DNA of 64,000 nucleotides from Strigamia acuminata (GCA_949358305.1 OX442314.1:25792001-25856000), one strand, 5' to 3'. Shown: positions 10,454-64,000, numbered from the stretch's first letter. A program made the numbers and translations. The notes: generated by a model not told the origin, from the sequence alone.

Positions 10454-10581
10454 GTTGAAATAATAATATGTGTGCCGGCAAAAACAAGTAATTAATTAAA
10501 TAAATATAACGACCTATACTTGCGTAGTCTTCACTGAAGAAAATGGTGATTTGTGTTCTCTTAGAACACGTTTCGAGTTGA

Positions 10582-10599
10582 ATCCTGTCTAGCTCGCCA
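10582..10599 (-). promoter_or_regulatory. Primer binding site, tRNA-Arg-like (TGGCGAGCTAGACAGGAT)
   Basis: Starts TGG 4 nt after the LTR end; resembles the complement of the tRNA-Arg(ACG) 3' end (TGGCGAGCCAGCCAGGAG). Confidence 0.75.
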
Positions 10600-10603
10600 A
10601 GAT

Positions 10604-11645: not shown

Positions 11646-12151
11646 AACTCACATGTGAACATGTTTTTAAATTGTTTTTTTTAATTTTTCACCATTCTTA
11701 TTCAAACCATAAATTTTGGTATTTTTCTAACTAAGATTGATAATAAATATTACTTAGATGCTTTATTAATTATTTCTTCTTTCTTATCCAATCACTCCAT
11801 CTTTGAATTGATGCTGTCAATGACCTCTGGTGGCAGTTGGTCGTACTCTTTTAAAATTTCTTCCACCCTTCTACTAGCAAAGCATAAAAAATTTAAATCT
11901 TACTAAAAATAATAACATTCCAACAATGCATACTACTTTCTAATCACTTGGAGAGTATTATATGCTACATTTTGGAATTAATTACATATCAGGTGATCAA
12001 AGATGTATGTTAAAGCTTTCATATGCTGTCAATTTTCTAAAATAGAGTTAAAATTCTCACACTCAAAATTTAAACTTAAAATACACTTAAACTACAATTG
12101 TTAAAACACAAGTATTTTAATTTTTGAATGCAGCTACTATTATTTTTTCAG

Positions 12152-12582
12152 ATTTGAATTGGAGAAGATATTTACTACGGACATGTGTAGTACTACTTGT
12201 AATTTTTGTCGCTTTAAGCGTTCCGCATTTCGGCAATATATTGTCATTAATAGGCGGTTCATCAGTAACGATGCTCCCATTCATTTTCCCATCATTATTC
12301 TACTTGAGATTATGCGGTCAGAAACATACAAACTGGCCTCCAATGTAAGAAATTTATGACGACAGATAAGTGCGGTGTTTCATTAAAACTTTATGAATTA
12401 TTTTCAGACCTGTGTCTTTGCACGAAAGAGTGTATTTATGGGAGTTGATCGCGATTGGTGTATTAGGGGGTATTGCGGCAACCTGGAGTGCCATTAAATC
12501 CATTGTTGAGTCATCGACATTCACTCAGCCATGCTATGTTAATCCCAATTTACAGTGTTACCTTGACCCTAAAGATTGTTAA
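12152..12582 (+). CDS. Last two coding exons (12152-12344, 12408-12582) of a host amino-acid transporter (Aa_trans / SLC32-36-38 / AVT-like)
   Basis: LRTCVVLLVIFVALSVPHFGNILSLIGGSSVTMLPFIFPSLFYLRL and ELIAIGVLGGIAATWSAI are typical C-terminal TM helices of this family; phase-compatible GT-AG 63-nt intron; stop 12580-82; AATAAA ~12667. Confidence 0.88.
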
Positions 12583-14635: not shown

Positions 14636-14851
14636 AACACTACTTTTCTATTTTTTGAGTAAAAAGGCCAATTTTATCATTACACTTGGTGAATAGGCTG
14701 CTGGACATGTGACATGTGACATCATGAATAGTGAATTATGAATTGTGAATTATGAGTAGTTATGATGTCACATGTCACATGTCCAGCAGCCTATTCACCA
14801 AGTGTAATGATAAAATTGGCCTTTTTACTCAAAAAATAAAAAATTAGTGTT
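14636..14851. repeat. Foldback inverted repeat (MITE-like), ~91-bp arms, ~34-bp spacer
   Basis: AACACTAC...TGTGACATCAT is near-perfectly reverse-complemented by ATGATGTCACA...TAGTGTT. Confidence 0.85.
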
Positions 14852-15372
14852 TCAACACACAGTAAAGAATTCTGTGTGTTGTAAACGTTTGTAACAATGT
14901 GAGAGAGAGATGCATTTAAATAAAAAAATATTGACTGTTCAGATAATAACAATACTTTTTTTTTAAATTAAACAATTGTGGATGTGGATTACACACACCT
15001 GTGGTCTCCATATCCTTTTCGCGGATTGGCTTCCGTGAAATCCGCATTTCGGGGGCGACTATTCTGGGGATTCCGGGTGGACCAAACTCTTCCGGAAAAC
15101 GTCCGGGGTGGTGTTGGGAGTGTCAATAGACTGTTTTGTGTCAAGGTTGTCAATTTTCATGTGAGTATTGGAAGGTTCATTTCTGCACATTCTCATGTAT
15201 TTTTTTTCACAGGAGCGACAAGGAGCGATGAAGCGGGATCGAGCGAGAGTGGGTAAAATAAACTGGTTTACGTCTCCAATGCGCGTTCAAGATGGAATAC
15301 GAACTCGGAATCGACTCCAACACGCGTTCGCGTGACATACGGACGCATTCACGACCCAGATCAAAAAATGAT

Positions 15373-18047
15373 CTCGTATTCGACTCGTTTTCGAGTCGAA
15401 TGCGAGTTTTGCCCTTCTTCAACGCGAAATCGTATTCGACTCGTTTTCGAGTCGAATACGAGTTTTGCCCTTCTTCAACGAGAAATCGTATTCGACTCGT
15501 TTTCGAGTCGAGTACGAGTTTTGCCCTTCTTCAACGCGAAATCGTATTCGACTCGTTTTCGAGTCGAATACGAGTTTTGCCCTTCTTCAACGAGAAATCG
15601 TATTCGACTCGTTTTCGAGTCGAGTACGAGTTTTGCCCTTCTTCAACGCGAAATCGTATTCGACTCGTTTTCGAGTCGAATGCGAATTTTGCCCTTCTTC
15701 AACGCAAAATCGTATTCGACTCGTTTTCGAGTCGAATACGAGTTTTGCCCTTCTTCAACGAGAAATCGTATTCGACTCGTTTTCGAGTCGAGTACGAGTT
15801 TTGCCCTTCTTCAACGCGAAATCGTATTCGACTCGTTTTCGAGTCGAATACGAGTTTTGCCCTTCTTCAACGCGAAATCGTATTCGACTCGTTTTCGAGT
15901 CGAATACGAGATAGTCGATGACCCGTTCCCGGACTTTGACTCGTACGACTCGTATTCGAGATGTATTCGAGATGTATTCGAATCGTATTCGAGTCGCATT
16001 CGAGATGGTCGATGATTTCCACTCGCTCGTATACGCGTTGTATACGAGCTCGTATTTTGATCGTAATCGTAAACGAATCGTTTACAAGTCGTATACGAGT
16101 TGTATACGACGTGTATACACCTCGTATACGAACGAAGTTTGTGAAAACACAATTTCCAAATAAGACGTATGTGACTACTATGTGTTTTCATGTCGTAGTA
16201 AGTATCCGGTGGATTTTCCAAACTTCGTTCGTATACGAGGTGTATACACGTCGTATACAACTCGTATACGACTTGTAAACGATTCGTTTACGATTACGAT
16301 CAAAATACGAGCTCGTATACAACGCGTATACGAGCGAGTGGAAATCATCGACCATCTCGAATACGACTCGAATTCGATTCGTATTCGATTCGAATACGAT
16401 TCGAATTCGATTCGTAACAACTCGAATACGAATCAAAGCCCGGGAAACAAAAATCGACCATCTCGTATACGATTCGAAAACGAGTCGAATACGATTTCGC
16501 GTTGAAGAAGGGCAAAATTCGTATTCGACTCGTTTTCGAGTCGTATTCGAATCGAATACGAATCGAATTCGAGTCGTATTCGAGATGGTCGATGATTTCC
16601 ACTCGCTCGTATACGCGTTGTATACGAGCTCGTATTTTGATCGTAATCGTAAACGAATCGTTTACAAGTCGTATACGAGTTGTATACGACGTGTATACAC
16701 CTCGTATACGAACGAAGTTTGTGAAAACACAATTTCCAAATAAGACGTATGTGACTACTATGTGTTTTCATGTCGTAGTAAGTATCCGGTGGATTTTCCA
16801 AACTTCGTTCGTATACGAGGTGTATACACGTCGTATACAACTCGTATACGACTTGTAAACGATTCGTTTACGATTACGATCAAAATACGAGCTCGTATAC
16901 AACGCGTATACGAGCGAGTGGAAATCATCGACCATCTCGAATACGACTCGAATTCGATTCGTATTCGATTCGAATACGATTCGAATTCGATTCGTAACAA
17001 CTCGAATACGAATCAAAGCCCGGGAAACAAAAATCGACCATCTCGTATACGATTCGAAAACGAGTCGAATACGATTTCGCGTTGAAGAAGGGCAAAATTC
17101 GTATTCGACTCGTTTTCGAGTCGTATTCGAATCGAATACGAATCGAATTCGAGTCGTATTCGAGATGGTCGATGATTTCCACTCGCTCGTATACGCGTTG
17201 TATACGAGCTCGTATTTTGATCGTAATCGTAAACGAATCGTTTACAAGTCGTATACGAGTTGTATACGACGTGTATACACCTCGTATACGAACGAAGTTT
17301 GTGAAAACACAATTTCCAAATAAGACGAGTCGAATACGATTTCGCGTTGAAGAAGGGCAAAACTCGTATTTGACTCGAAAACGAGTCGAATACGATTTCG
17401 CGTTGAAGAAGGGCAAAACTCGTATTTGACTCGAAAACGAGTCGAATACGATTTCGCGTTGAAGAAGGGCAAAACTCGCATTCGACTCGAAAACGAGTCG
17501 AATACGATTTCGCGTTGAAGAAGGGCAAAACTCGTATTCGACTCGAAAACGAGTCGAATACGATTTCGCGTTGAAGAAGGGCAAAATTCGCATTCGACTC
17601 GAAAACGAGTCGAATACGATTTCGCGTTGAAGAAGGGCAAAACTCGCATTCGACTCGAAAACGAGTCGAATACGATTTCGCGTTGAAGAAGGGCAAAACT
17701 CGCATTCGACTCGAAAACGAGTCGAATACGATTTCGCGTTGAAGAAGGGCAAAATTCGCATTCGACTCGAAAACGAGTCGAATACGATTTCGCGTTGAAG
17801 AAGGGCAAAACTCGTATTCGACTCTTAAACGAGTCGAATACGATTTCGCGTTGAAGAAGGGCAAAACTCGTATTCGACTCGAAAACGAGTCGAATACGAT
17901 TTCGCGTTGAAGAAGGGCAAAACTCGTATTCGACTCGAAAACGAGTCGAATACGATTTCGCGTTGAAGAAGGGCAAAATTCGTACTCGACTAGAAAGCGA
18001 GTCGAATACGATTTCGCGTTGAAAAAGGGAAAAACTCGTACGCGATT
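15373..18047. repeat. 56-bp hairpin satellite arranged as two opposed arrays around nested palindromes (copy A)
   Basis: Unit CGCGAAATCGTATTCGACTCGTTTTCGAGTCGAATACGAGTTTTGCCCTTCTTCAA; forward ~15373-15911, reverse ~17325-18047; central palindromic module with a 580-bp period. Confidence 0.95.
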
Positions 18048-18053
18048 CAGTGA

Positions 18054-18662
18054 AACTAAATTTACATGTGCGCGTTGACGCGCGCGATTCGTGTGTTCTA
18101 CGTGAGTAAATAGAGTGCGCGTCACATATGAATACGAAATGTCGACCATGCGTCGCCACGATGCCAGTGGACGAATTCTGCGAATTCGTGCAAACGCAGA
18201 AAGTTAAAAATATTCAAATTTGACGCCCACGATGACACGTTCGTAGTAGACGCCTCCACAACTGCTTTTGAAAAGAATTTGATAAATGTTTGGAAATAAT
18301 ATTTAGGATTTTCTTTAATCATATCAGGAAACTGAAAACAGAAATAAAGTTTATACATTGGAAATTTTTTATAATAAAATTACGTATTAAACATTATATA
18401 GCGTGAGAATGGACACTTTGATATGAAAGCGAATATTTTCGAAATTAAAACAATTATTTTCAAAGTTAAAACGACTATTTTCGAGTATTGTTAATTCAAA
18501 ACGACGTGCAGCATGGGAATAAAAAAAATTAATTGAGACGCGCTTATGACACGCGCTGCACAGCCTCACGAATCCTAGAGGCATCCTTCCACAACTATAC
18601 GCGTGGGCCCTGACGCGGTCGTCTAGACGAGCGCATCTGGACGCGCACATATGAATGCAGCT
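18054..18662. mobile_element. MITE-like cassette 1 (degenerate TIRs); copy B at ~28387-28978
   Basis: AACTAAATTTACATGTGCGCGT...ACGCGCACATATGAATGCAGCT; internally homologous to cassette 2. Confidence 0.6.
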
Positions 18663-19402
18663 TTACGCGATCACATTGCGACGCAAAGTCGTCCACGACT
18701 CCAATATGCATCCGCGCGTAGTCGCGCTGCAATACGGAATGCGCTCACGACTCCAATGCACGGTTTTTGGGCGTTTTTGGGCGTTTATTAAACATTTTTT
18801 GACGTTATTACGTGTGATCGCGCGTATATTTTGTTGACGAGAAAGAAAAAAAAAATTCCTCAAAAGCCGGACCAAGGTTTCGATACAGTACGCTAATTTA
18901 TCTTTTATTTTTGCAATGTGTGCGCGTCCAATACAAGCATAAAACTAGCGCGAGAATACCGCGATGGACGACCGATCGCAACTGCTGTTCCGCATGGCGT
19001 TTGTCCATCTCCCGACCTGGAAGGAGAGAAAAATAGAACGCCAATTCGGTCTCAGTCCTGCCAACGGGACCCGACAGTCAGTGGCTAAAAAGCACACCAG
19101 ACAACAGGTGATACACGAAATCAACGACAGGTGTCCCAAACTTTTCACACAATCATGATTGTTCCACAAAGCCGAACCGAACACGACAAATAATTTAACA
19201 AACAAACAGTAATAACAACGATGTTAAACCACTTGTTTGATGATGAAATTGTACGACAACTACTATTTATTTATTTAATTAAAACATAACAACACACGAA
19301 AGAAGAAATAAAGAAAAAGAAAAAAATAAAATAAAATAAAATAAAATAAAATGAAATAAAATAAAATAAAATAAAATAAAATAAAAAATTCGAATGATCT
19401 GT

Positions 19403-20531
19403 CTAGTCGACATTGTCATCGTCATCATCTTCACCATCGTCACTATCACCATCGTCACTATCACCATCGTCACCATCACCATCGTCACTATTAACATCGT
19501 CACCGTCGTCGTCATCATCAATTACCCTCTGAAAAGAAAGAAAAAATAAGAGAAACAATCAAAAAAGGTGGATGTGCACCAAAAATGTTTACCGGTTGGC
19601 AGACCCGTTGCTGAAACTTGTACAGCGATTCGACAGACTTGATCGAAGTCAACGCCATCAAATCGACACACTGAAAATTATCAAACAAAAATGAATGTAC
19701 ATGAAAGGTCGAAAAGTGGTCGCGCGCGTCATCGTGCGTTTTATTCTTACCTTGCCAGACAATTTCTTTAACACGGATTCCACCGTGTCCGCCGCAATAG
19801 ACGATAAAAGAATGCCACCATCGCGCGTTTTCTCGGCGACCGGTTCGACATCATCCCGCTCCCGCTGCTCCCGTTCCCCTGATCTCGCCTCCGCCACCTC
19901 CACTTCGCCCATAGCCACTTCAACTTCCGCTTCCACTCCATCCACGTCCATCTCTCTATCCTCCTCGGTTATCTCCACCTCCACTTCCATATCATACACA
20001 TCTGTATCGACCCAGTCCAGGTCGCTTTCCATCTGCTTCAACTTCTTCTCCATTGATCTCAACCGACCTATCATCTCCTTCCTGCCACGCCACCTCCAAC
20101 CCATGTACTCTTCGATCCTCTCAATTCGTTTGGTTGTCCCCGTGAATCTCTTTGCTAGAGTCCACGCGATCTCCCTGGCTTTTTTCGCCGCCCCCGCCAC
20201 CGTCTTTTTCTCGCGCTGCGGCGGTGGCAGCAGTGGCGACGCCTCTCCTCGACACGACTTGAAAGAGAGAAAAAAGACAAACGGATAAAAAAAAAACGGA
20301 TGAACAAATAAATAGATTGATGACAAATAAAGCAAACGAACGAATCAGTACCTCGTTAACTTGCGCCGGGTCTTCCATCTCCCCATCACCCACTAAACAA
20401 GCGCGTTTAGATGGAATAGGATCTATTTTTGACGGCGTGTCGGTCAATGGCACAGCGGACGACAAATTCGATGTAGTCGTCGTTTCCTCTTCCCCATCCC
20501 CTCCAATCTCTCTGTTTTTCTCCGTAGCAAC
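19403..20531 (-). CDS. Cargo gene (copy A): 4+ exon coiled-coil protein with acidic tail
   Basis: Reverse-complement counterpart of 30205-31340; splice sites and frame conserved. Confidence 0.65.
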
Positions 20532-20548
20532 CTGTAAAAAAAGAAAAG

Positions 20549-20579
<31 letters not shown>

Positions 20580-21126
20580 GTGAGGAAGATGGAGGTTATA
20601 TAAATGAATAAAACCTGAACAAAGGAAAACGAATGGGACGTAAACTCAGTTTCGATCTCTGTTAACGACGGACGAAACGTCCAATGGACGTTAGTCACAC
20701 GCATCACCTCGCTCACTCGCTCACTCATTCACTCATTCGCTCACTCACTCACTCGGGACTGTACGTTTGACAAAAATTCGTGATAAAAATTACCCCAATT
20801 ACATTAAAATCTTCTATCAATTGTGGTACTAAGGCGTCCATGATGTTGGGTGGTTAGTTCTGCATCCAGGAGGCATAGACAAGACCAATCACGACTCTGC
20901 TCATTGTTGGCCAATCAAATCGCTTCGTACGATGGCGCCAAATTCGATTGTTGGACTGCTTTCTATCGTGTTTTAGAGATTTTTGAGAGAAATCTTACGA
21001 CGAGAAAACTCTTCTCTTTTTTTTTCATGGAAAGACACACGGGTTAACCACCAAAAATATTTATTTATTTATTTACGTGTGTTTTGTAGACGACGCGTCT
21101 TCTATCGCGTGACACACGCGTGTAAA

Positions 21127-21792
21127 AGCTAAGTTCACATGTGCGCGTTGACGCGCGCGTTTCGCGCGTTCGACATGTGAATGCAAAACGTTGACCATAC
21201 GTCGCCGCGCGCGTCGCCGCGCCGCAAGTGGACGAATTTCCCGAAATCGCGCGAACGCCGAAAGTTGAAAATATTCAACTTTGACGCGCGCGACCACTCG
21301 TTGCCACCTTTGTTTTCCAGTGAAATCATTGATTTTTACATTGAAAACAGTCACATTCTATTGAAATGAATTGTTTTCACGTCAAAACAATACACGAAAA
21401 ACAATACAAGAAAAAAAAGAGTTCATAAACAAATACAATCGTTTCGACGGTGCGCGTGGAAATTACATGCCGCTCAATGCTCGCCTGCTGCGGCCGGGGA
21501 GATTGCAATTTCCCGTCGAGCAAGCAAACACAAAAACCCACCAAATTTTCAACTTTTCCCATTTTAAAAAACAATTAAATATTCTTTAAATTAATAATCA
21601 ACAATAAAATACCAAAAAAATCAATTCTTAAGCAACTTAACAATTTTTGTTTTTGTGCTGCATGGGAACCAAAAAATTGGTTGACGCGAGCTTGTGACAT
21701 GCGCTGCACAGCCTCGCAAATCCTAAGTGCGTCCTCAGCCATACGCGTCGGCCTTGACGCGCGCGTTTAGACGCGCACATGTGAACTTAGCT
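21127..21792. mobile_element. MITE-like cassette 2 with 22-bp perfect TIR; copy B at 28980-29618
   Basis: AGCTAAGTTCACATGTGCGCGT...ACGCGCACATGTGAACTTAGCT, flanked AAA/TAA (PIF/Harbinger-like, tentative); non-coding. Confidence 0.75.
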
Positions 21793-21876
21793 TAAATACG
21801 TGGGAACGGGCTACACGCACGCTCGAATATGATGCGCGCGTCGGCAAACAATATTATCTCGTGATCGCGCGTCGTG

Positions 21877-22100
21877 AACCTACCGGGCGGATGTGACGCG
21901 TGAATAACCCCAGGATCAAGTTTCACGAAAACCTGATTTCGAAGAAAAAAACAACATACCGGTCAGATGTGACGCGTGGATAACCCCAGGGTCAGGTTTC
22001 ACGAAAACCTGATTTCGAGGAAAAAATAACCTACCAGACGGATGTGACGCATGGATAACCCCAGGATCAGGTTTCACGAAAACCTGATTTCAAGGAAAAA
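21877..22100 (+). repeat. 3x 75-76-bp tandem repeat with internal hairpin (also ~32169-32395)
   Basis: Units start 21877, 21953, 22028; each contains ATCAGGTTT-CACG-AAAACCTGAT or a variant. Confidence 0.9.
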
Positions 22101-24299
22101 ACGAAAAGACGCACAAAGACTACAGGATAAAAATGATACGTAGAGAGAAGAAAATAGAAATTGATTCCCCGATTCGTGAAATTAATTTCACATCGTGTAC
22201 TCCAACCATTAATTGCATTGTCGTATTAGGTGTTGTGTGAAACGAAGATCGTAAACGTTTCGATCGGTTTACGATTTAAATTTCATCTCTCGGTGCGCGT
22301 CGCATCGTCGTAAATGACGCGAATTCATATCACCGCGTTCGCCAGATTCACGAGCACTTCCAAACCGTTCGTTTCGGACCTTCGCGGGAATCCGGAGGGT
22401 TTCGGTGTCTGGTCTCATGTCCCAGACTCGCTGCGTTGCGCAGTCACCGGCCAACCAAATGTGTCGGTTGGTTAGACGCGTCGCAATGAATAGGGGCAGC
22501 CATGGATGTGTGTTAAAAAATAAACAATAGTTGGCTGCTGCGGATAACCTCGACCACTCGTCTCAATCGTTCGTTCGCTCAACCGACAGGGGCGCACCAC
22601 TGCAGATTTAAATTTTCAGATTTCAATGGGAGACCTTGTCTCACACAAGGTACGGAATCTCCTTTGTGCCATCCTCGATTCAATCGTTAAAGACAGCATG
22701 CTCCTCGACCAGGACTGACTAATAGAATCAACTGACATTTTACCCACCGCGTTTGATCGCGCGCGTGCTTTTCTTCTCCCTGCCCATCCGTCCGCTTGTT
22801 TATTCTATCGTTTGGGCGATGTTGCGGAACAAAACGTCTACCTTTTTTATCGCCTTTACACGACCTTTCTTTATTACCCTCCTTCTTGGAATGTGCGTGG
22901 CCCCTAGCAATTACGTAACCAAACAGGGTGCTCACGTTGTTCTCTCTTTTGGTCTAGATAATCCCATTTTCTCCACCGCCACTCAAACACGCCCACATAA
23001 AAAATCCAAAGATTTGTTTATTTTATTTTATTTTTCTATTTAACAAAACAGACAAACAAAACAAATCGAAAATTAGAGAGAAAATCTGAATAAAAATTGA
23101 ATAAAGATTGAAACAAAAATTGAATAAAAATCGAATGAAAATTGTAATAGAAATTGAATAAAAAAATTGGAGTAAAAATTGGAATGAAAATAGAAAAAAA
23201 TCGACAAATCCAACGACGCATTCGGGGCTCCTCCATCTCCATCTCCCTGCACGCCACCGTGGTCGATTCCGCCACCGTGGTCGATTCCGCCACCATACCG
23301 ACCGCCAAGGCAATCGTCCAAAAACGAGTTTAGGTCCTCCAACATAAACGCGAAGCGGATGGCCGCGACAATCCGTCCGACCAAATCCGCGCGCGATGCC
23401 ACTGCCTCTACACCGGCGGTCTCGGCGCAAGACAGTTGGTAGAAGAAGAGCGAAATAAAAAATTAACATTTGAATTAATAATTGGTCAAGACGCTGGGCC
23501 AGTCACTTCGGTCGCGCGCGTAGTAACAACGCGCCGGGTACACGCGTCTAGCCGAGGTCTTCTGTTTACCCATTTGGAAAGAAAGAGAAAATGAATAAAC
23601 GTAATTTAATGAGAAGCAAATACTTGTAGATGCAAATAAAACGTAGGGGAGAGGGGGGGGGGGGGAGGGGAAGAAAAACCCAAACCAAACAAAACCAAAC
23701 AGAGTTTGAAACTGCACGGATAGTTTTAGAGCGGTGTGATTAAGTCTGTCTCGACGTGCCAAAAATGCCAAAACAATGACAAAGTATGTGTTAAATGAAT
23801 GCTGCTTCTTTCTTTGTTTGTTTCTTCATTCGTCTGTTCGTTGTGTGAAAATAAAACAAATTGGTCGATTACACACGTCGAGTTTGGTCCAGAAAACCCA
23901 CACAACGCAATGAAGACCACCTCGCATGCTTGTTAAAAATTAAAAAGTGATGGCGATGCACGGGGTCTCCCGCCCGTGCGCGTGTGCACATGCTAATGTA
24001 ATGTACGCACGCGCACGGGCGGGCGGTCGAGTGAATGCGTGAATCGTCTCTCCACTCGCTCGTTTGTTTGAAAATAGACACTTGCACTACTTACAGTACC
24101 AAAATCCCTCCCCCCACCTATTCACGTTGTCGCAGTTACGTCAAGGTATCACGACGCGCAACAAAAAAAAAAGAAAGATTTTTATCTATTGCGCCACACT
24201 CCATTTCGTGAAACACGCGTGTGTATCGATACGTTCGAGCGTTTTATCTGCAAGGTGAGAAAATAGTCGGTTTCCCCGACCACCATATTTTAATTTAGC

Positions 24300-24323
24300 C
24301 GACTGACTGACTGACTGACTGAC

Positions 24324-24363
<40 letters not shown>

Positions 24364-24370
24364 GGATAGA
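24300..24370 (+). repeat. Compound (GACT)n(GATA)n microsatellite (also ~34634-34703)
   Basis: Directly visible; unit counts differ between copies. Confidence 0.95.
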
Positions 24371-24417
24371 CAGGGAAACAAACAAACGACTAAACAGGCG
24401 GTCGGGGATAAACGAGT

Positions 24418-24617
24418 NNNNNNNNNNNNNNNNNNNNNNNNNNNNNNNNNNNNNNNNNNNNNNNNNNNNNNNNNNNNNNNNNNNNNNNNNNNNNNNNNNN
24501 NNNNNNNNNNNNNNNNNNNNNNNNNNNNNNNNNNNNNNNNNNNNNNNNNNNNNNNNNNNNNNNNNNNNNNNNNNNNNNNNNNNNNNNNNNNNNNNNNNNN
24601 NNNNNNNNNNNNNNNNN
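24418..24617. other. Assembly gap (200 N)
   Basis: Run of N; true size unknown. Confidence 1.
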
Positions 24618-24984
24618 AACCTTAACCTTTTCGCGGATTGGCTTCCGCGAAATCCGCATTTCGGGGGCGACTATTCTGGGGATTCCGGGTGGACCAAACT
24701 CTTCCGGAAAACGTCCGGGGTGGTGTTGGGAGTGTCAATAGACTGTTTTGTGTCAAGGTTGTCAATTTTCATGTGAGTATTGGAAGGTTCATTTCTGCAC
24801 ATTCTCATGTATTTTTTTTCACAGGAGCGACAAGGAGCGATGAAGCGGGATCGAGCGAGAGTGGGTAAAATAAACTGGTTTACGTCTCCAATGCGCGTTC
24901 AAGATGGAATACGAACTCGGAATCGACTCCAACACGCCTTCGCGTGACATACGGACGCATTCACGACCCAGATCAAAAAATGAT

Positions 24985-52400: not shown

Positions 52401-55400
52401 CCACCCGCCTCTCCACCACCCTCTCCACCAGCCTTTCGTGGTACAACACCACCCTGGACTCGGAGGGTTGAGACTCGCTGAATTCCGTGTCTTGGGATTC
52501 CTCCAGCATCGGCTCTGTTGGTTGCGATTGCGAGTCGTCCAGAATCGACTCCACTGGACGTCGTCGAGATGTGTCCATTGTGGCCTGATTAAAAACGAGC
52601 AAATATAATAAATAAAAAAATAAAAATAAAAACAAAAAATAAAAATAAAAATAAAAAAATGAATAAAAATAGAAAAAGAAAAAGAAAAATCAATTAAAAG
52701 AAAGAAAAAAAGGGGGGGGGGGGATGGGGGGGGGAGGGAAGGGAGCGGACACGTAAAACAAATCGAGACGCGGGGCGTCAAACGACAAAAAATTGGACGC
52801 GCGTGTTCGCGTATTTTCGCGCGCACAAACATGGGAGAATGGGTCACAATTGCGTCGATCGCGCCAGAACCAGCAACGAAAGCTTATCCTCGCAAAATTA
52901 ATTTTGATTATGGGCCAATTCTTTCACTCACCGCCGTCGACGCTTCCACAGTGACCAACCTCTCGTCCACGTGCGGTTCCGTGTCCTGGAACGATACGAA
53001 TGTGTATGAATAAATCAGCGTTTAAAAAATAAATAAATAAAATAAAATAAAACAAAGAAAGTTTAGAAAAATGGAAAATAGCGGGTCCGTACCCCGGACC
53101 GTGCCCATTTCCACGCGGATATTAGAATTTATTCCTATCCCGACGTGGCCCCTCTCCACGGATCTCAGATTTAATTGTCGGAAGAAAAATTTGATCACTA
53201 CTTTGCAATTGGCATTCGATGCTGTTAAATGGTTGGAGAATCGGGACCGTTTGTCATTGCTTAAAATTGGCACAGATAAGAGATCGCGCATAAATGGGAC
53301 AAAAAAATTAAATTTAAAAAAATGAAATTTTTACACGTGATATGAATCAATTTTTAATGTCCGCGCGGAAATAAATAAATTATTTTCTATTTTTATTTCG
53401 CGAATTAGGCAGAAATATTTATTTATTTATGTGTTTGTTTATCTATTTTTCATCAATAATAATAATAATAATAATATTGTTAATCGTTGTGACGGTTTAC
53501 AATGGCTATAAATGCCTATTTTCTTAGAAAGAAGCGCTGTTGCGCCATTATCATGATATCTCGAAGATATTCTGTGTAAAACTGATAAATGTCTGGAATA
53601 AAGTTATTTATGATGTTTCAAATACAAAGATGTTCGTTTATTAAGAATAAACACTCATTCCTACTTGATATCAAAGGATTCCGGCCGAATCACGAAGAGT
53701 CGTCTGCTAAAACCGCATTTGTCAATGCGCAATGTTGCCACAAGATGGCGCGATTACGATTTAGCGGCAAATTCAAGATATGAATATAAAACATGTAAAT
53801 AAATATAAAACTATATTTACTAGAATGAAACGAAGCTTTGTGAACATTAATATAAAGATATATTAATGTCTTGTGATGTTAAATACAATGTAACTTCCAT
53901 TTTCTGCGGGACAGGACATTTGGTGATCAATCGATCAACCAATAGATCTGATTGGTGGATCCATTTCCGGTCCTGGGTATCCAGTTCCGGTTGTGGTGAG
54001 AATTAGCACATTGTTCCTCCGTATCCACTTCCGGTGATACGGGATTGGAGGGATTCGTGGAACCCATGTTCCAATTGGATAACTGGATTAATCCTTAATC
54101 CAGTCAGGTTATATAAACCCAAACAACCGGCCATTCTGCAGCTCTGTTTGATTATTTTCTGTTTGGTATTGTTACTTAAGAAATATGATTCGTTGTTCAC
54201 GTAAAAAAACCTTTTGGTTCTTTGTTGATTTATTCGCAAAGAACCGTTGCATGATTCTACAGAATCATGCCACCGCCGGCAATTGAAGTCGAAGTGCTGG
54301 GATCATTATGTTGCATAAATGTTACAGTTTACGGTTGCGACGCCGAAGGAGAACCCGCCGTTGTGCAATTCAGTATCCTCCGGACAGGACCAAGTTGTCT
54401 TTTTCGGTATGAACGTATTCCGTTACCACGAGTAGCATCGGTATTGTTGAGAATCGGTTCCTTCACCTGATGGTGCCAAAGCAGTCTGTTTTACAGTAAC
54501 CACGAGTAGCACCAAGTGTTTGGCAAGCTGATTCTCATGGTATTCGATGCCAAAGCAGTCGGTCTATTATTAGTACCGCGAGAGATAAAACTGCTGTGCG
54601 GAGCCGCGAGCTATCGACCCCTGTGTACGTGGTACCGTCAACCACTCGATGGACGACCGTGCTGCGACGCCGGGGACGCTTGATACCGTTCTGCATGGCA
54701 AGGCGTATATTCTAATCGATGGCAATTGTGTGTTGCGACGGGAAGCTTAATCTTCATTTTATTTATAACAGCAAAACTTAAACTCGACAACCAGTTGGAC
54801 CAAAATCAAGTCAGAAGACTTAATCTCATATTGAACTCAATATAACCGATAAGTTGACGACAACTTATTCCCGAAATATCTAAATAAGAATTCACAACGA
54901 TATGAATTAAATATAATTCATAAGTGGAATATTGATAAGTAAATGAATACATTTACTTACACCAATATCCTCCCAAAGTTGTGGCGGTGCAGACAAAGTC
55001 AACCGCAATGCTCAGATCATTCGATTTATCGACGTGCGATAGTTTACACAGCGAACCAAGGAAACCAGCGAAGCCGTATCGGACTCCAGGACACAGCCAT
55101 CCGGCTTAAGATGACATCTATAATCAGGTCGAGCGATGGGGAAACCGCTCCCATATTCCAGACCCGTAGTGATATTATTCTAGGGCCAGTTGGCCAATTC
55201 TTTGTATAGTTTAATAGCTGATTTAACTTGCCAAATGTCGGCATTAGTCCTATGTATAATTTAGCCTTGATATTATTGTTTACCAACAATAAACTGTCTT
55301 GTATTTATCTCGTATTGTATTCACTGTTTATTTATTGCGATCTCTTCCCGGTACCATTGTTAAATGGGAGTTGTGGTCGTCACCGTCACACGTGGAGGTC

Positions 55401-58400
55401 CCACCGAGATTAGGTTGCAATTAAATTCGATTGAATTGCAACAGTGAATATTGGAGATAAATATTTAACTAAAAGATTTAAGTTAAAAATAGACAGATTA
55501 AATTTTCAGTTTATATTTCCATGTGAAGAAGTTAAACTGATGAAATAGAAATACGTAGTAGATTTTCCTTCATTATTTTCGTTTGAAGATTTTAGGGATT
55601 TCAAAGACTACCACCTAATCTCACACGTGGAGGTCCCACCGAGATTAGGTTGCAATTAAATTCGATAGAATTGTAAAAGTGAATTTTGAGATAAATATTT
55701 AACTAAAAGATTTAGTTAAAAAACAGACAAGTTTCAAACCATGTTTATTTTCTTGAGAAACACCAAAACAGTCCTTTAACTAGGAATTTCGGAAGTTATA
55801 GACCTATCACACGATCACTGAAATAGGTTGCAAATTAATTCGATCGAATTGCAAAAGCGAATCTTGAATCCGATATTAACTAAAAAATTTTAGTTAAAAC
55901 AGACAAATAGATTTTCAGTTTATATTTTCATGTGAAAAGTTAAACTGACGAAATGGAAACGTTTAGTGAACTCTCTTTACTATTTTCGTTCGACAATTTA
56001 AGGAATACGAAGTATTTTAAATAAGAAATCAAAAAAGTTTCGAGTGAAATAAGAATACAGATATTTTTTTTCGAAGTTTGTTTTATTTCGAAAAGCTAAA
56101 AACATACAAGTTTAGAAGGCGGACTTCTTACGAATTTATCTTTCCACCTGAAAAGTTAAAACGAAGAAAACACCGCAACTATTTGGAAATATTTACAAGA
56201 AATTAAGTTTCTTGTAACTGTACGTCGACACCGATAGCCAGCGACCACGCGCCATAGCAATACGCGTCGATCTCCGTATCAAACGCAGCAGGGAAGCTAC
56301 TCAAACCTTCAACGCAAGGTGCGAACGAATGCTTGGAAATTATGGCGGACAACAGATAAAAGACAGCGGAGAAATGTTACAGAAGGTTCGTAGAGATTTA
56401 TTTAAGTGTCGCGAACTAATTTTTCCACTGCCATCGGTACCAAAGATAATTTAGTTGTTGGAGAAAAACAACACACTCCATTTCGCAGAAAAGATTTGCA
56501 AATCGAAATGAATATTACCTTTATTTGAAGGAATTAACTATTTTCACAAAAAGTACATTTTTTCCTTCGGGACAATGGAAATTAAGAAAATATAAAATGG
56601 CGGCGAATGAAGTTGCCGACCACATAGAATAGTATTTTTTACATTGAAAGTTACGAATCACGATAAACGCTTTCCCTCGGAAAAGTAAAAGGATTTCATT
56701 CAATCTTTCCTTTCGGAAATTTAACAGTGTTTTAAGTTTCCAACGATATTTGGGTCTCCCAAATTTTGAGAATTTCTAAATGAAATTTAGCTGTTTGAAA
56801 AACAACGAATATTTTTAGTAATCTAATCGGACATTTTCCCACATGATTTCTTAAAACCGGAATAACAAATCCATTTGTGGCTATGAACTTTGCCACATGA
56901 AATATTTACGGAGCGAATATTTTTTGATTGGATTGAAGCTTTAAAATCAGATAGCTGATTTAAACGAAGAAAATAAGTTTCAAAGTAATTATTTTTCTTT
57001 CGGAAAAATCAAATAAATCACCGCTGATGAAAAGTTGTATTTTTCCATTCGAAAAAACTAAGAATTGCACAAGATTTATCTTCTATTTTGAACATAGATT
57101 TTATTCGGAAAAGGAAAGATTCTAGATACATTATTTTTCTCTAAAAATTAAGAATTTAGTCAATTTTCCTAAAGGTTAATGGAATGTCATCATATATTTC
57201 GTTCGTAATTTACGTGTTAAAGTTTAATCAGAAAAACGATTGAATATGTTTTATTTGCGATAAGTAAAAGAAAGGTTCTTTAAAAATGGAATTTCGATGC
57301 AAATCCCACAGTAAAGGGAATGTTATGTGTGAGCAATTAACGAAAAGTTGGAATAACTTCATTTTATTTCATTCAAAAGTAGTTGTGAAAAATCAATTTC
57401 AAATATTTTTCAAAGAAAAATTATTTTTATCGGAAAAAAGTAATTTACATGTCCTCGCGCGGACCGAGTAGTAAACTGCTTAATTGTGACATCGATACTG
57501 TTATTGTGTCACGTGTTATACGGAATTCCAAACCAGTGAATTACGAATTTTGGCGCGATAGGAATAGAAGTTTGACAGTGAAAGTTCTCCAGATTTGTCT
57601 TTTCATTTGAAAAGTTCAAATTGAGGAAATGCTGCAGCAGATGAAGGTATTTACGACAATTGAGATTTAAATATTCTTTCATTCAAAAGATAAAAGATCT
57701 CTGCAAAAACATCTCGTTATTAGAGATAAGGGGGACGAAAATTATTAAAACGAATAATCAAAGACACGTCCTTCGTAAATATCGCAAAGGAATAACTAAT
57801 TGTGAAAACAATTGTCCGCTCAGGAAAAGTGGAATTTAGCTAGATATTTTCTTTCGAAAAATCAAAGCAATTGTCATCAAAAAAGAAAGATTTGATGAAT
57901 AATTTTTACCCAAAAGTCTAAAGGATTGTCGAATAGTTTTCTCCCGAAAAACAAGTACACATTTGTACCAATAACTTTATCGTTTAAAGTAAAATTTCGA
58001 ATATTTTCTTTTGGAAGATTAGAGAATTAGATAATTTTTCTCGCAAAACAAATTTAAAGAATTTTAACGAATTTTTATTTGTTAAAAAAATTTGTTAAAA
58101 AAGGGGGAGATGGATGGTGAAAATTTATTTTTTCACACTCGAAAAATGGAATTTAAACCCGAAAAAGTAAAGACTTGGTCAAATTATTCTTCCTATTGGA
58201 AATGAATACACAATGTTGGGAATCGAAAATAGATTTCAATTACAAAGGAATGATTATTTGAACGATAATTGAATAAGAATAAGAAAAATTGAGAGTTTGA
58301 GAAAACTTTATTAAAACTGTGGTTGTAATGATATTACACACTAAACGGAATAATCAAAGAAAAATATTTTTTGAAGAAAAGTTATTTAATTATTTGGATT

Positions 58401-61400
58401 GGTAAAAATCCCAAAGTTCAAGAAGATTGAAGTAAGTTTATTTTATTTTCATTTGAAAAATACAATATTTTACGAATGTCTTCCCGAAGGAATTTTATTT
58501 TATCGGTAAAATTGAATCTCGAAGGGAACGGACTTAGTAGAGAACTACTAAATAGATGTAACGTCCTTTATACCATTGGCCGACACTAACATCCGCCAAT
58601 CAGAAGTTGGGAGATCTAGGGATCCCCAGCCCCCTGCTATTAAAGGAGGACCAGATCAGATACTGATCATTCGCATCCAGACCAGACCAGAAGACGTGTT
58701 CCAGAGTCATCTTGACCACGCCGTCCCGATTTCAGTCACGATTCGAATTTTGTGTGCCGTGTAACCTGCAAAAGCTAACACGTGTCAAACAAACGCGAAG
58801 TTTAATTTTATTTTGTCAAAAGTAAAGTTTAGAAGTGTTTCTTGTTGAAAAGTGTATTATATTCGTCTTCTTTATAAATTAAAGAATTAAAATCGTCAGA
58901 TTTTGAATTTTTTTATGGCTCAAAAACCATTGAATATGATCGATCCAAAAGGAAATAATAAGCAGACAAACTTAAATTTAAGTTCTGTACCACTTGGCGA
59001 TCAAACAGAAAAGATTCCCGATCATTTTACTCTGTATTGTAATCGTCATGGACTGGATAAAACCAAGTTTAAAAATATAATCGAAGCTTCAGACTATGTA
59101 AAAGCTAGGAACTGGCGAGATCGTACCCAATCTCAATCTTCACATCAAGATCCAGTACGGAATCCACAAACATACAGCCGAAACTTAGTGAATCAAGATT
59201 CTCATACTATGTTTCAAACATCCAGTAGGGGATCTAAGTTAGAAAAGTTTAAACCACCTAATTCGGTAGATAAGGGGGAAGAGAATTATAAACCTAATAA
59301 TTCTCGTCCAGAGAGTTCGTTAACTAACCAGTCGGTTGTTCAGAACAAATTAAAACTCGTTTACAATCGAGATCAGCTAATTTCAGTTCGATATGCTAAT
59401 CCAGCTGAAGCACAACGATATGTGGCTAGCCTTAATCTGTCGATTAACCTACCGCTATCAAAAGAATTGGGAACCGTAAACAAAAGTTTTGGGCCACCAA
59501 TATCAACGCAAAGGAAAGATATTCGGACTCCAAACAAACATTTGCAGTCAAATAACGTACAACAACGTGCCCGATCGCCGATCACAAACTCATGTTTGCG
59601 GACGTATGATTTGTCTACCAAGAAGAGTCCCCAGCCAAGACAATTCTACCTAACGCCCATTTCAAATCGAAAAAAGGTCAAGCAAACTTTTCCCTTGAAA
59701 AAGTATTACCAACACGATAATGAGAATGATTTTAAACCTAAAAAAGAAAGTTTTTTGACTAACCCACGGGAGATCCGGTATCAAATTCGAACAGTATTGT
59801 AAACAATACCAGTTAAATTCAGCTGAATTTAAAAATATAAACGAAGCGCAACAATTCGTATTTCGAAATCAATACCGTAACCAACGACTAAAACCCGTCC
59901 CAGTCGTCAATCTGACGGAGATACAACAATTTGCGTCTGGAAAGCAACCCTGCAATATCCAGAATAATTCATCTCAACGAGAGGAATTAAGAACTTCAAA
60001 AAAGCGTTTTCGGTCACCAAGTCCAGCTGGTGATGAAGAAACTTCAAGTACAAACCAACATGTTCAAAAACTGACTGAAAACCCAGGTTTCCAATCATCA
60101 GTTCCACGACTTAGAGTCAAATATAGATCCCCTCGTTTGTTGCGGGATTTCACAATTCCAAATATGGGTCCTTTCCACGTATGGTTTTCCAATGAGGGTC
60201 CCATTCATGTATGGTTTTCCAGAGATGACCTAAAACAAAAAGTTGGGTCGTCACGGTCATTTACACTGCCAAGTGAGTACACTGTGTGTAACTGCCCAAA
60301 GAAAAAACGTCGAAAGAAATCAGTACAGCAGGCTGAGAGATCTCGGAAATTTGCAAATATGCGAGCTCAATATTTAGCAAAGAATCATGTTGATTAACAT
60401 GATATGATACACAAAGATTCCCCGATTATAGTGTAAACAGAAAATCCTCTTCTAAAAATCATGACCTCTCTTCTAAAGAAAAGGGGGACAAAATATAAAA
60501 GTTAGAATTAACAAAATTTTGAAAAGTAATGCTACATTATTAAGACAACTAGTTTAATTAAATTAGTCAATTGTACAAAGAATACCAAGTGACTCCGGTC
60601 ATGACAATTAAGGGGGACAATTATGATTTCTTAATTGTCAACTCTTATCATCTAAAAGCTATTTATTGTATATTTATAGCGATACATCTGACTAGGCATA
60701 TGAAATAAATATTTTGTGATAACACAAATGATGATTTTATGTATGACGAAAGTTTCTTCAAAAAGAAGACTTGGAAATAAATTCTGGACTTGAATTTAGG
60801 CTATTAGAAAAGATTATTTCGGCAGAAAATCAGAACTTAGATAATTCAAGTTAGTTTATGTAAGCTCAAATTCGAAATTGGAAGTCACGGTATCTCCAAG
60901 ATACATCAAGTCCGAAAATAGCATTTATGCTAATTAGGAGAATAACGAAAACTCTATAAAATTTTATATAATTGTGTTATTAAGGGGGATGTGTGACGGT
61001 TTACAATGGCTATAAATGCCTATTTTCTTAGAAAGAAGCGCTGTTGCGCCATTATCATGATATCTCGAAGATATTCTGTGTAAAACTGATAAATGTCTGG
61101 AATAAAGTTATTTATGATGTTTCAAATACAAAGATGTTCGTTTATTAAGAATAAACACTCATTCCTACTTGATATCAAAGGATTCCGGCCGAATCACGAA
61201 GAGTCGTCTGCTAAAACCGCATTTGTCAATGCGCAATGTTGCCACAAGATGGCGCGATTACGATTTAGCGGCAAATTCAAGATATGAATATAAAACATGT
61301 AAATAAATATAAAACTATATTTACTAGAATGAAACGAAGCTTTGTGAACATTAATATAAAGATATATTAATGTCTTGTGATGTTAAATACAATGTAACTT

Positions 61401-63471
61401 CCATTTTCTGCGGGACAGGACATTTGGTGATCAATCGATCAACCAATAGATCTGATTGGTGGATCCATTTCCGGTCCTGGGTATCCAGTTCCGGTTGTGG
61501 TGAGAATTAGCACATTGTTCCTCCGTATCCACTTCCGGTGATACGGGATTGGAGGGATTCGTGGAACCCATGTTCCAATTGGATAACTGGATTAATCCTT
61601 AATCCAGTCAGGTTATATAAACCCAAACAACCGGCCATTCTGCAGCTCTGTTTGATTATTTTCTGTTTGGTATTGTTACTTAAGAAATATGATTCGTTGT
61701 TCACGTAAAAAAACCTTTTGGTTCTTTGTTGATTTATTCGCAAAGAACCGTTGCATGATTCTACAGAATCATGCCACCGCCGGCAATTGAAGTCGAAGTG
61801 CTGGGATCATTATGTTGCATAAATGTTACAGTTTACGGTTGCGACGCCGAAGGAGAACCCGCCGTTGTGCAATTCAGTATCCTCCGGACAGGACCAAGTT
61901 GTCTTTTTCGGTATGAACGTATTCCGTTACCACGAGTAGCATCGGTATTGTTGAGAATCGGTTCCTTCACCTGATGGTGCCAAAGCAGTCTGTTTTACAG
62001 TAACCACGAGTAGCACCAAGTGTTTGGCAAGCTGATTCTCATGGTATTCGATGCCAAAGCAGTCGGTCTATTATTAGTACCGCGAGAGATAAAACTGCTG
62101 TGCGGAGCCGCGAGCTATCGACCCCTGTGTACGTGGTACCGTCAACCACTCGATGGACGACCGTGCTGCGACGCCGGGGACGCTTGATACCGTTCTGCAT
62201 GGCAAGGCGTATATTCTAATCGATGGCAATTGTGTGTTGCGACGGGAAGCTTAATCTTCATTTTATTTATAACAGCAAAACTTAAACTCGACAACCAGTT
62301 GGACCAAAATCAAGTCAGAAGACTTAATCTCATATTGAACTCAATATAACCGATAAGTTGACGACAACTTATTCCCGAAATATCTAAATAAGAATTCACA
62401 ACGATATGAATTAAATATAATTCATAAGTGGAATATTGATAAGTAAATGAATACATTTACTTACACCAATATCCTCCCAAAGTTGTGGCGGTGCAGACAA
62501 AGTCAACCGCAATGCTCAGATCATTCGATTTATCGACGTGCGATAGTTTACACAGCGAACCAAGGAAACCAGCGAAGCCGTATCGGACTCCAGGACACAG
62601 CCATCCGGCTTAAGATGACATCTATAATCAGGTCGAGCGATGGGGAAACCGCTCCCATATTCCAGACCCGTAGTGATATTATTCTAGGGCCAGTTGGCCA
62701 ATTCTTTGTATAGTTTAATAGCTGATTTAACTTGCCAAATGTCGGCATTAGTCCTATGTATAATTTAGCCTTGATATTATTGTTTACCAACAATAAACTG
62801 TCTTGTATTTATCTCGTATTGTATTCACTGTTTATTTATTGCGATCTCTTCCCGGTACCATTGTTAAATGGGAGTTGTGGTCGTCACCGTCACATCGTGA
62901 GACAATTTTTCCACTCACCGTCATCGTGGTTGCAACTTCGGTTGACCCCTCCTCGGTTTCTAATTTTTCATTTTCCATCTTCCCACCTTCCGTCTCTTTG
63001 TTTGCGTCGGATGTCTGTAAGGGAGAGAAAATAAAAAATAAAAATAAAAATAAAAACATTTTTCGTTTGTGTCGGCATATTCCGCTCTAAACGCGCGATT
63101 TGAAAACGACCACAAATCCGTGCTCGACGACGGTGCGTGGCAACGAGTGGACCAATACGGTATACACGTGTGCATATGAATCGATGAATCGTGTATAAAT
63201 CAATAAATAAAAAATGTATACATTCGTCTAATTTTAATAAACCTCGTTCGCCGTCGATCGGGTAAAAATCATCCACGTTACACCGCAAACGCTCACTCAC
63301 GTACACTCCCGCGACCAAACACAAAAAATCCATGCGCGTTGTTCGACGACCACACGTGTGCACACGTACGACCACGGACGCGATTCATTGACAAAAATAT
63401 CGCAAAAATTCGTAAAAGCCGCCCAAATTTACCTGCGGAGACGCGACCGAGCATAAACTTCCCGCTTCCAT
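48161..63471 (-). CDS. Cargo gene, ~14 exons, ~1020 aa: E/K repeats, Pro-rich region, two C2H2-like fingers, acidic tract; one intron holds the LTR insertion
   Basis: Phase-compatible exons 63471-63433, 63014-62919, 52985-52932, 52584-52345, 51996-51901, 51550-51471, 51399-50712, 50436-50038, 49975-49699, 49594-49443, 49361-48942, 48861-48787, 48717-48416, 48317-48161. First and last exons are uncertain. Confidence 0.62.
50930..51320. repeat. Coding minisatellite (36/48-bp units) encoding (EKEKAVEETVS[G/E])n on the minus strand
   Basis: Repeated CCGACACAGTCTCTTCCACCGCC. Confidence 0.9.
53488..55390 (+). repeat. 5' LTR
   Basis: Direct repeat of 60992-62894 at a constant offset of 7504. Confidence 0.97.
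55393..55410 (+). promoter_or_regulatory. PBS complementary to tRNA-Gln (TGGAGGTCCCACCGAGAT); second copy 55628-55645
   Basis: 18-nt complement of the tRNA-Gln 3' end ...ATCTCGGTGGGACCTCCA, 2 nt after the LTR. Confidence 0.9.
58903..60397 (+). pseudogene. Frameshifted ~490-aa unknown protein in the LTR element interior
   Basis: 299-aa ORF plus a +1 frame open from ~59759 to 60397; a ~33-aa motif is repeated across the junction. Confidence 0.55.
60981..60991 (+). promoter_or_regulatory. Polypurine tract
   Basis: TAAGGGGGATG directly before the 3' LTR. Confidence 0.75.
60992..62894 (+). repeat. 3' LTR
   Basis: Appears identical to the 5' LTR by eye. Confidence 0.97.
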
Positions 63472-64000
63472 TTCCAGTTCATGTATGCTCGCTACCAGTT
63501 TGTTGACGCGACACCTGTTGGCGATTCCGCGAATGATTTTGATTCAAAGTCTCCGATTTACATCCGTTTTTAAGAGCTACGATGTTTTGGTTTTGGAGTC
63601 GGCTATGTGATCGTTTTTTAATTAAAAACGAAACAATTTTGGGTCAGACGATAATATTTTGGGCTCCGTTATAATTTCGAGCACGCGATCGTGAGCGGGG
63701 TGCTGTGATGCCCACTTCACTCCAGTCGCGTTTAAACAAACCAACAAGTTCGGGTTTTTGTCCCCTTTACTTATTTGTTTATTTTGGAGTTTTTATCGTG
63801 GGTCAAAAACGTTGACCGGAGGCAACGCCACATGTGCAAAAGGGCAATAAAAGTACAAGTTTACTCGAATGGAGAGAACATTGCGTATATATAATATATA
63901 TTATATATGTATTTATTTATTTATTTATTTATCTATTTATTCATTTATTTACTATCTACGCGCGGCCACGTAAATAAATTCAATGGGAACCCCGTGGAAT

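What the first reader, a model, noticed from the sequence alone, without database searches (positions are those of the whole stretch)
15014..64000. Candidate giant piggyBac-family cargo transposon with its own intron-rich gene set
Seen: two copies share sequence starting at exactly CCTTTTCGCGG, with different flanks (ATAT, TTAA). An intact spliced piggyBac transposase lies 15 kb inside copy B, surrounded by at least six compact spliced genes with no obvious host housekeeping identity. No right terminus occurs in 39 kb. Known: piggyBacs target TTAA, start with CC(C/T) and are usually a few kb with one gene; Teratorn (piggyBac-herpesvirus fusion) is the large exception. Inference: the whole block moves as one unit, a non-viral giant cargo element.
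Basis: partly seen in the sequence, partly recalled or inferred. Interest (0 to 1): 0.92.

Follow-up and report, generated by a model that had tools for sequence, protein, structure and literature searches.

The report
Giant multi-gene piggyBac element, left arm
This is at least 30 kb of a repeated block that starts with a piggyBac-type end and holds a piggyBac transposase gene plus six predicted spliced genes with no identified counterpart; it is likely a high-copy giant cut-and-paste element about ten times the usual piggyBac size, but its far end is missing, so a hidden virus core is not excluded.

Summary
Largely real, with corrections. Two 99.2-99.7% identical copies start at the same piggyBac-type end (15014 after ATAT, 24626 after TTAA). 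But a 200-N scaffold gap cuts copy A, only 8 bases of flank precede copy B, and 9.4 of the '39 kb' is a young LTR element inside an intron. A 641-aa, five-intron piggyBac transposase of an unnamed clade lies 15 kb inside B, with no TIR pair around it. Six other genes can be modelled (27 more GT-AG introns, no stops); two carry C2H2-like fingers, one PHD and RTC4-like stretches below Pfam cut-offs. The left end is a 3-kb palindrome of 56-bp hairpin units. New evidence: in three public runs depth is flat over 20 kb of transposase and cargo and roughly 35 to 175 times that of low-depth contigs, so the block is amplified as one unit and is not single-copy host DNA. Not shown: right end, TIR, matching TSD, splicing, activity. 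Best reading: giant piggyBac-family cargo element (0.55); endogenous large DNA virus using piggyBac as integrase (0.22); block amplified otherwise (0.15); artefact (0.08).

The parts
15014..24417 (+). Copy A: left 9.4 kb of the element, cut by the scaffold gap; preceded by ATAT
24418..24617 (.). 200-N scaffold gap between copy A and copy B
24626..64000 (+). Copy B: from piggyBac-type left end (preceded by TTAA, 8 bases of flank in all) to the window edge; no right end
15374..18040 (.). Sub-terminal palindrome of copy A: 56-bp units forward, 580-bp hairpin core (duplicated), 56-bp units reversed; each unit has a 14-bp stem with 4-base loop
   Evidence: z -4.4, 0 of 200 shuffles
24986..28381 (.). 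Same sub-terminal palindrome in copy B, with more 56-bp units
18666..21793 (-). 3.1-kb segment with gene G1; inverted in copy B (28979-32093)
30205..31340 (+). G1, >=291 aa, 3 introns, acidic/coiled-coil-like, start not located; open in both copies
35005..38564 (+). G3, 758 aa, 8 introns; two C2H2-like fingers, acidic tract, PHD-like and RTC4-like stretches (both under Pfam cut-offs)
39660..42003 (+). piggyBac transposase, 641 aa, 5 introns; Asp299/Asp388/Asp500, C-terminal cysteine-rich region
42271..43618 (-). G5, 359 aa, 3 introns, charged coiled-coil-like with 8-aa repeat
44759..45311 (-). G6, 159 aa, 1 intron (weakly supported model)
46707..47327 (+). G7, 180 aa, 1 intron, Ala-rich (weakly supported model)
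48412..63014 (-). G8, >=960 aa, >=11 introns; Glu-rich repeat, Pro-rich stretch, two C2H2-like fingers, basic tail; 5' end not located
53488..62894 (+). Nested LTR element (not part of the cargo): 1903-bp LTRs, 0 mismatches, TCGT duplicated on both sides, inside a G8 intron

Best explanation
This is the left 30 kb of a repeated block that begins with a piggyBac-type end and contains a spliced piggyBac transposase gene and six predicted spliced genes, and it is likely a recently amplified giant cut-and-paste element whose own transposase would move the whole block as one unit. Shown: shared sharp left end, transposase with DDD triad inside the block, no closer ends around it, flat high read depth over transposase and cargo, 0.3-0.8% divergence between copies, a later LTR insertion. 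Inferred: a matching right TIR beyond 64000; excision and insertion at TTAA (rarely ATAT) by the encoded enzyme; tens to over a hundred copies per genome; the zinc-finger, PHD-like and acidic proteins acting as the element's own nuclear regulators (expression or escape from silencing) and the hairpin arrays as their or the transposase's binding platform. The copies in the window are likely ageing insertions, not necessarily the active source copy.
For: Left end fits the piggyBac rule (CCYT start, TTAA; ATAT listed among rare sites: PMC5601938 and PMC5381638 passages). PF13843 on 4 transposase exons, 3 above cut-off; exons align in order to full-length relatives at 40-60%. No TTAA-CC end in the 1.1 kb upstream and no non-microsatellite inverted pair over 11 nt around the gene. 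Depth in run X1 is flat across 33480-53470 (29 of 30 bins, tandem-repeat bin left out: median 1268, CV 0.20), with 1302, 1259, 1168, 1178 in the bins on either side of the transposase ends, and one contig bridges the last G3 exon and the DNA upstream of the transposase (38286-39542). Main contigs are about 35x (X1), 175x (X3) and at least 84x (X2) deeper than low-depth contigs that touch the stretch. Length polymorphisms keep frame in 4 of 4 exonic cases versus 1 of 8 elsewhere, Fisher p 0.010 (12 of 29 rows were printed). G3 and G8 exon chains are stop-free where random frames would be so with p 0.0006 and 0.0012. piggyBac can mobilise 100-kb cargo in cells (PMC3239208 abstract).
Against: No right end, TIR pair, matching TSD or empty site was seen. 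B has only 8 bases of flank and A's flank is the non-canonical ATAT. The 23 exonic substitutions among the 40 printed rows (of 138) are 4 synonymous to 19 non-synonymous, no better than neutral (expected 28%, p 0.92); G1 A versus B is 5 to 6. Trp498 next to the third Asp is unlike all 12 relatives, and run X1's main contig shows no difference there; the fourth conserved Asp of canonical piggyBac, needed to some degree (PMC2533014 abstract), is Asn here and in all 12 relatives. The depth baseline is a proxy, not a proven single-copy level, and the tool warns that depth is no copy number. Splice sites were chosen by hand; G6 and G7 have no support beyond one intron each (p 0.67).
Confidence: 0.55

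Rival explanations
1. The block is the terminal, non-core arm of an endogenous large DNA virus that uses the piggyBac transposase as its integrase (Teratorn-like or nimavirus-like); the hairpin arrays would be a replication origin or enhancer, and part of the depth would come from episomes.
For: Precedents: Teratorn (180 kb, 30-40 copies, internal inversion between subtypes) and endogenous nimaviruses (22-477 copies per haploid genome, intron-bearing eukaryote-like genes, one group with an intron-bearing Ginger2 transposase and 46-bp TIRs). Depth ratio differs about five-fold between runs of one species label. Tandem palindrome units resemble baculovirus hr and EBV oriP repeats (recalled, not tested). 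The element is of unknown length.
Against: No viral family above cut-off among 148 of the 167 ORFs of 70 aa or more scanned (the one baculovirus-family hit, Orf78, is sub-threshold and falls mostly on intron read-through). All seven genes are intron-bearing (32 introns in 10.1 kb of coding sequence), with no dense intronless ORF block in 30 kb.
Confidence: 0.22
2. The block is multi-copy but was amplified by another route (tandem macro-repeat, B-chromosome or segmental duplication, or a different mobiliser further right); the piggyBac gene and piggyBac-like end are passengers of an element that no longer moves.
For: Flat depth cannot tell dispersed from tandem copies. Neutral-looking substitutions and the odd Trp498. 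Large satellite arrays and unequal unit numbers between A and B show recombination.
Against: A and B share a base-exact boundary that matches the piggyBac end motif, with different flanks, one of them TTAA; A's flank is unrelated TE debris with no similarity to the element.
Confidence: 0.15
3. Assembly artefact or ordinary host locus: A and B are two haplotypes of one single-copy region holding a domesticated piggyBac-derived gene among fast-evolving host genes.
For: A and B sit on either side of a scaffold gap, differ by under 1%, and B's contig starts 8 bases before the shared boundary. Introns in piggyBac genes are typical of domesticated ones, though Pokey has one.
Against: Depths of 14,000-20,000 (X3) and 25,000 (X2) on main contigs against about 100 and 300 on low-depth contigs. 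The inversion with junction deletions is not an assembly error. The tandem placement of A and B may still be a scaffolding artefact even if the element is real.
Confidence: 0.08

Closest known systems
piggyBac-like elements (T. ni piggyBac, PBLE; PMC5381638 passages)
   Same: PF13843 DDD transposase with C-terminal cysteine-rich region; CCYT-type end; TTAA (rarely ATAT) next to the end; sub-terminal repeats
   Different: At least 30 kb against about 2.5 kb; six extra genes; five introns in the transposase; 3-kb palindromic satellite at the end; transposase only 24-33% identical to the other piggyBac proteins in the tree set and in its own clade
Teratorn (medaka; PMC5601938, PMC10175614, PMC6431247 passages)
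   Same: Giant, multi-gene, multi-copy, piggyBac transposase inside, long inverted repeats, internal inversion between variants
   Different: No herpesvirus gene found in the 30 kb seen; all genes intron-rich; reported from teleost fish, whereas no host can be named here
Endogenous nimaviruses, esp. sesarmid group with Ginger2 integrase (PMC10871703 passages)
   Same: Tens to hundreds of copies, intron-bearing eukaryote-like genes, intron-bearing DDE transposase with TIRs
   Different: Different transposase superfamily; no nimaviral core gene found; no telomere-repeat tract seen at A's flank
Pokey (Daphnia; PMC3849761 passages)
   Same: Enlarged piggyBac with an intron and variable repeat arrays and acquired DNA in the 5' non-coding region
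   Different: A few kb, one gene, rDNA-derived repeats; no Rfam match here
Starships (fungi; search listing and abstracts)
   Same: Giant eukaryotic elements with accessory cargo genes
   Different: Moved by a tyrosine recombinase at the element's edge (abstract listing and recall), not a central DDD transposase

Membership tests
piggyBac superfamily | DDD transposase of the piggyBac type | tested here: met
   PF13843 on 4 exons, best E 2e-21; Asp299/388/500 align with relatives
piggyBac superfamily | C-terminal cysteine-rich domain | tested here: met
   Cys/His pattern aligns with full-length relatives; no Pfam hit on that exon
piggyBac superfamily | End begins with CCYT-type motif | tested here: met
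   Both copies; rule
piggyBac superfamily | 12-19 bp TIR at both ends | not testable with these tools
   Right end outside the window; no genome held
piggyBac superfamily | TTAA target duplicated on both sides; precise excision | tested here: inconclusive
   TTAA left of B, ATAT left of A; no right flank, no empty site
piggyBac superfamily | Transposase gene belongs to these ends (no closer pair) | tested here: met
   No TIR/TTAA pair around the gene; no depth step
Teratorn-like piggyBac-herpesvirus fusion | Herpesvirus core genes (polymerase, helicase, terminase, capsid) | tested here: inconclusive
   None in 30 kb by Pfam; rest of the element unseen
Endogenous nimavirus | Nimaviral core genes; tyrosine recombinase or Ginger2 integrase | tested here: inconclusive
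   None found by Pfam in the part seen; no dedicated profile search
Domesticated piggyBac-derived gene (PGBD) | Single copy, no element ends | tested here: not met
   High flat depth in 3 runs; shared sharp end in two copies

The most novel reading that the evidence does not exclude
An undescribed lineage of giant, virus-free piggyBac elements in animals that carry their own intron-rich set of nuclear regulator genes, reach tens to hundreds of copies with several-fold differences between individuals, and use a terminal palindrome of hairpin repeats as an origin or maintenance site, so that they behave like an animal counterpart of fungal Starships; the unnamed transposase clade seen across metagenomes marks further members.
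Probability: 0.3. Interest if true: 0.9.

Novelty: new variant of a known kind. Interest (0 to 1): 0.72.

Why it matters
Natural cut-and-paste elements are thought to stay small; the large piggyBac on record is a virus fusion, and 100-kb piggyBac cargo is known from engineered constructs. A natural, high-copy piggyBac of 30 kb or more with whole spliced genes would show that DDD transposons can be gene-carrying units in animals, could make up several Mb of variable genome (inferred from depth), and offers a direct test of what such cargo does for the element. If the missing part is viral instead, it would be an independent piggyBac-virus fusion with an unusual intron-rich arm. My nine searches found no description of such an element; subscription journals and Repbase entries were not searched, and no supplements were seen.

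Tried and rejected
No genome is held, so the genome-wide terminus search was impossible. Read-level views of the left junction and of the LTR/right part were not obtained; only 33480-53470 was laid. No RNA holder was listed: no evidence on expression either way. Run X6 barely covered the stretch. Word-index homolog searches found nothing for a transposase exon or the G3 end. No locus of transposase relatives could be fetched from metagenome or viral contigs, so cargo beside relatives is untested; the contigs of the clade members looked up are under 6 kb. Single-sequence folds of the G3 end were poor (pLDDT 62 and 49) and gave no fold match (best Z 5.0; viral E 0.79); the second model was not searched. 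Atlas: nothing for the G3 end, only sub-0.9 zinc-finger leads for a G8 exon. Rfam: 0 matches in 15014-53487. Cargo proteins are not clear paralogues of each other (best E 0.018). A possible gene near 33400-33950 (minus) was dropped because A and B differ there by a frameshift and a 60-bp indel. Reading B's 8-base flank as telomere repeat or as a circle junction was considered and left: too short, and it does not match an inverted left end. Four look-ups of earlier findings returned nothing.

Full report
Observation. The copies differ by 0.33-0.78% substitutions in four aligned segments, by satellite unit number, and by an inversion of 18666-21793 (28979-32093 in B) with 16 and 8 bases absent at B's junctions; that is a biological difference, not a base-calling one. 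No inverted copy of the first 12-20 bases exists in the window. Of the 39,375 bp after 24626, 9,407 are an LTR element (53488-62894; LTRs of 1903 bp with no mismatch; TCGT on both sides) sitting in an intron, which leaves 29,964 bp of element, still open at the window edge.

Anatomy. After 360 unique bases comes a palindrome of 2.7 kb (A) or 3.4 kb (B): forward 56-bp units, a 580-bp hairpin core, reversed 56-bp units; 59 units were located in the two copies. One unit folds as a 14-bp stem with a 4-base loop plus a short second stem (z -4.4; 0 of 200 shuffles as good). Seven gene models close with 32 GT-AG introns (median 81 bp, intron GC 36%, exon GC 55%, donor GTGAGT 11 times) and no internal stop: G1, G3, the transposase, G5, G6, G7 and G8. 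With my hand-picked boundaries, random frames would leave the chains stop-free with p 0.0006 (G3), 0.0012 (G8), 0.033 (transposase), 0.07 (G1), 0.15 (G5) and 0.67 (G6, G7), so the last two are weak. G3 and G8 each hold two C2H2-like motifs; G3 also gives PHD (22 bits, cut-off 24) and RTC4-like (19.9 bits, cut-off 23.7) hits. Pfam on 148 of the 167 ORFs of 70 aa or more with GC at least 40% right of 28550 (plus two others) gave only the transposase family above cut-off. No housekeeping or viral hallmark family appeared.

Transposase. 641 aa, exons 39660-39935, 40039-40698, 40769-40914, 40975-41195, 41289-41573, 41666-42003. An HMMER search with part of exon 2 gave 1043 hits at E<=0.001. Of the 56 sequences of 400 aa or more (55 fetched proteins and the window's own), 44 aligned over 300 columns and went into a tree: the protein sits in a 13-row clade (100/99) of proteins 41-52% identical to it, against 33% or less for the rest. 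The members looked up come from JGI, ENA and Logan contigs under 6 kb and carry no informative names; the nearest named protein is from Priapulus caudatus. Four gene-call fragments (P0002, P0003, P0005, P0006) lose similarity just after the position of intron 2, which suggests a shared intron (inference). Asp299, Asp388 and Asp500 are present; the fourth Asp of canonical piggyBac is Asn in this protein and 12 of 12 relatives, and Trp498 is found in 0 of 12, so activity of this copy is uncertain. No TTAA followed by CC lies in the 1.1 kb upstream, and inverted matches between the upstream and downstream zones are microsatellites or at most 11 bases without TTAA: the gene is not a small piggyBac nested in something else.

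Copy number. Three public runs of one species label, from two studies, hold the transposase. Laid on 33480-53470, X1 gives flat depth (median 1268, CV 0.20 over 29 of 30 bins), with no step at the transposase; its eight longest listed contigs are at 1091-1556 and differ from the window at 32 of 6162 bases (0.52%). X3 main contigs are at 13,843-19,737, two X2 records at 25,000. Contigs that touch the stretch only by short or about 10%-diverged matches lie at medians of 37 (X1, 8 rows), 298 (X2, 20 rows) and 101 (X3, 13 rows); I took these from the printed rows and left out four lower X2 rows (24.6, 35.5, 71.8, 207.7) and two high rows (5632, 7109). Ratios are about 35 (range 24-101), at least 84, and 175 (126-251). 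The baseline is a proxy and contig depth is not a copy number, but the block is clearly amplified as a whole and not single-copy. Of 12 printed indel rows (of 29), 4 of 4 in exons keep frame against 1 of 8 elsewhere (p 0.010). Against function: 23 exonic substitutions among the 40 printed rows (of 138) are 4 synonymous, 19 non-synonymous, 0 stops, as for neutral change; most are differences between copy B and the X1 majority, which fits a copy drifting since insertion but gives no sign of selection.

Mechanism. The simplest account is a giant piggyBac: the internal transposase binds the shown left end and an unseen right end, excises the whole block and inserts it at TTAA or occasionally ATAT; engineered piggyBac does this with 100 kb (PMC3239208, abstract). 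The cargo looks nuclear (zinc fingers, PHD-like, acidic and basic tracts), so I infer self-serving regulators, with the hairpin arrays as binding platform; none of this is tested. Confidence 0.55. The main rival (0.22) is an endogenous large DNA virus using piggyBac as integrase, as Teratorn does (PMC5601938, PMC10175614, PMC6431247; passages) or as some nimaviruses do with Ginger2 (PMC10871703, passages); the five-fold spread in depth ratio and the hr/oriP-like repeats (recalled likeness) fit it, the intron-rich genes and lack of core genes in 30 kb do not. Amplification by another route is given 0.15, a single-copy locus or artefact 0.08.

Comparison and novelty. It works like a piggyBac and meets the transposase and left-end criteria (PMC5381638, passages); TIR pair and TSD could not be tested, so membership of the whole block is likely, not proven. 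Pokey shows that piggyBacs can gain an intron, repeats and foreign DNA (PMC3849761, passages) but stays single-gene. Nine literature searches found no natural non-viral multi-gene piggyBac; the library lacks most subscription papers and I saw no supplements. I rate it a new variant of a known kind, interest 0.72; the bolder reading, a virus-free Starship-like piggyBac lineage in animals, has probability about 0.3 and would merit 0.9. The host is not identified; an invertebrate animal is my inference.

Noticed in passing
window 571-10495 (minus): LTR-type retroelement with open gag (8537-10495) and pol (3811-8136; RT, RNase H, integrase) followed by two long ORFs (2315-3283, 322 aa with paired CxxC motifs; 571-2490, 639 aa) with no Pfam hit; no LTR pair found in 1-13000.
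   Followed up: partly
window 53488-62894: Very young LTR element with identical 1903-bp LTRs and a 5.6-kb AT-rich interior holding two ORFs (58891-59802, 59759-60397) without Pfam hits and no pol: likely non-autonomous.
   Followed up: partly
window 14082-14299: Remnants 72-83% similar to the nested element's LTR lie in copy A's flank, tying the giant element to the same genome as the flank.
   Followed up: yes
window 14636-14851: 216-bp palindrome (90% self-complementary), MITE-like, 160 bp left of copy A.
   Followed up: no
window about 52075-52310: Small MITE-like insert in a G8 intron; contigs with loose ends at 52107-52130 in runs X1 and X2 suggest relatives elsewhere in the genome.
   Followed up: no
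window 18055-18663 and 21126-21795: Two related 600-670 bp units with inverted ends flank G1; both inversion breakpoints of copy B fall at the right tips of these units.
   Followed up: partly
window 21877-22102 and 32169-32394: Three tandem 75-bp repeats just right of the invertible segment; fold no better than shuffles.
   Followed up: partly
window 33766-38387: Low-depth contigs about 88-92% identical to cargo sequence, some with internal deletions, indicate an older diverged subfamily in the same organism.
   Followed up: no
window 39706-39753: In-frame 24-bp tandem duplication in transposase exon 1; the X1 contig over this place has 24 gap positions, so it is likely private to this copy.
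   Followed up: partly
whole window: CpG is not depleted (observed/expected 0.9-3.0 per 2 kb), and CGCG is 6.8-fold richer in the element than in flank and LTR interior.
   Followed up: no
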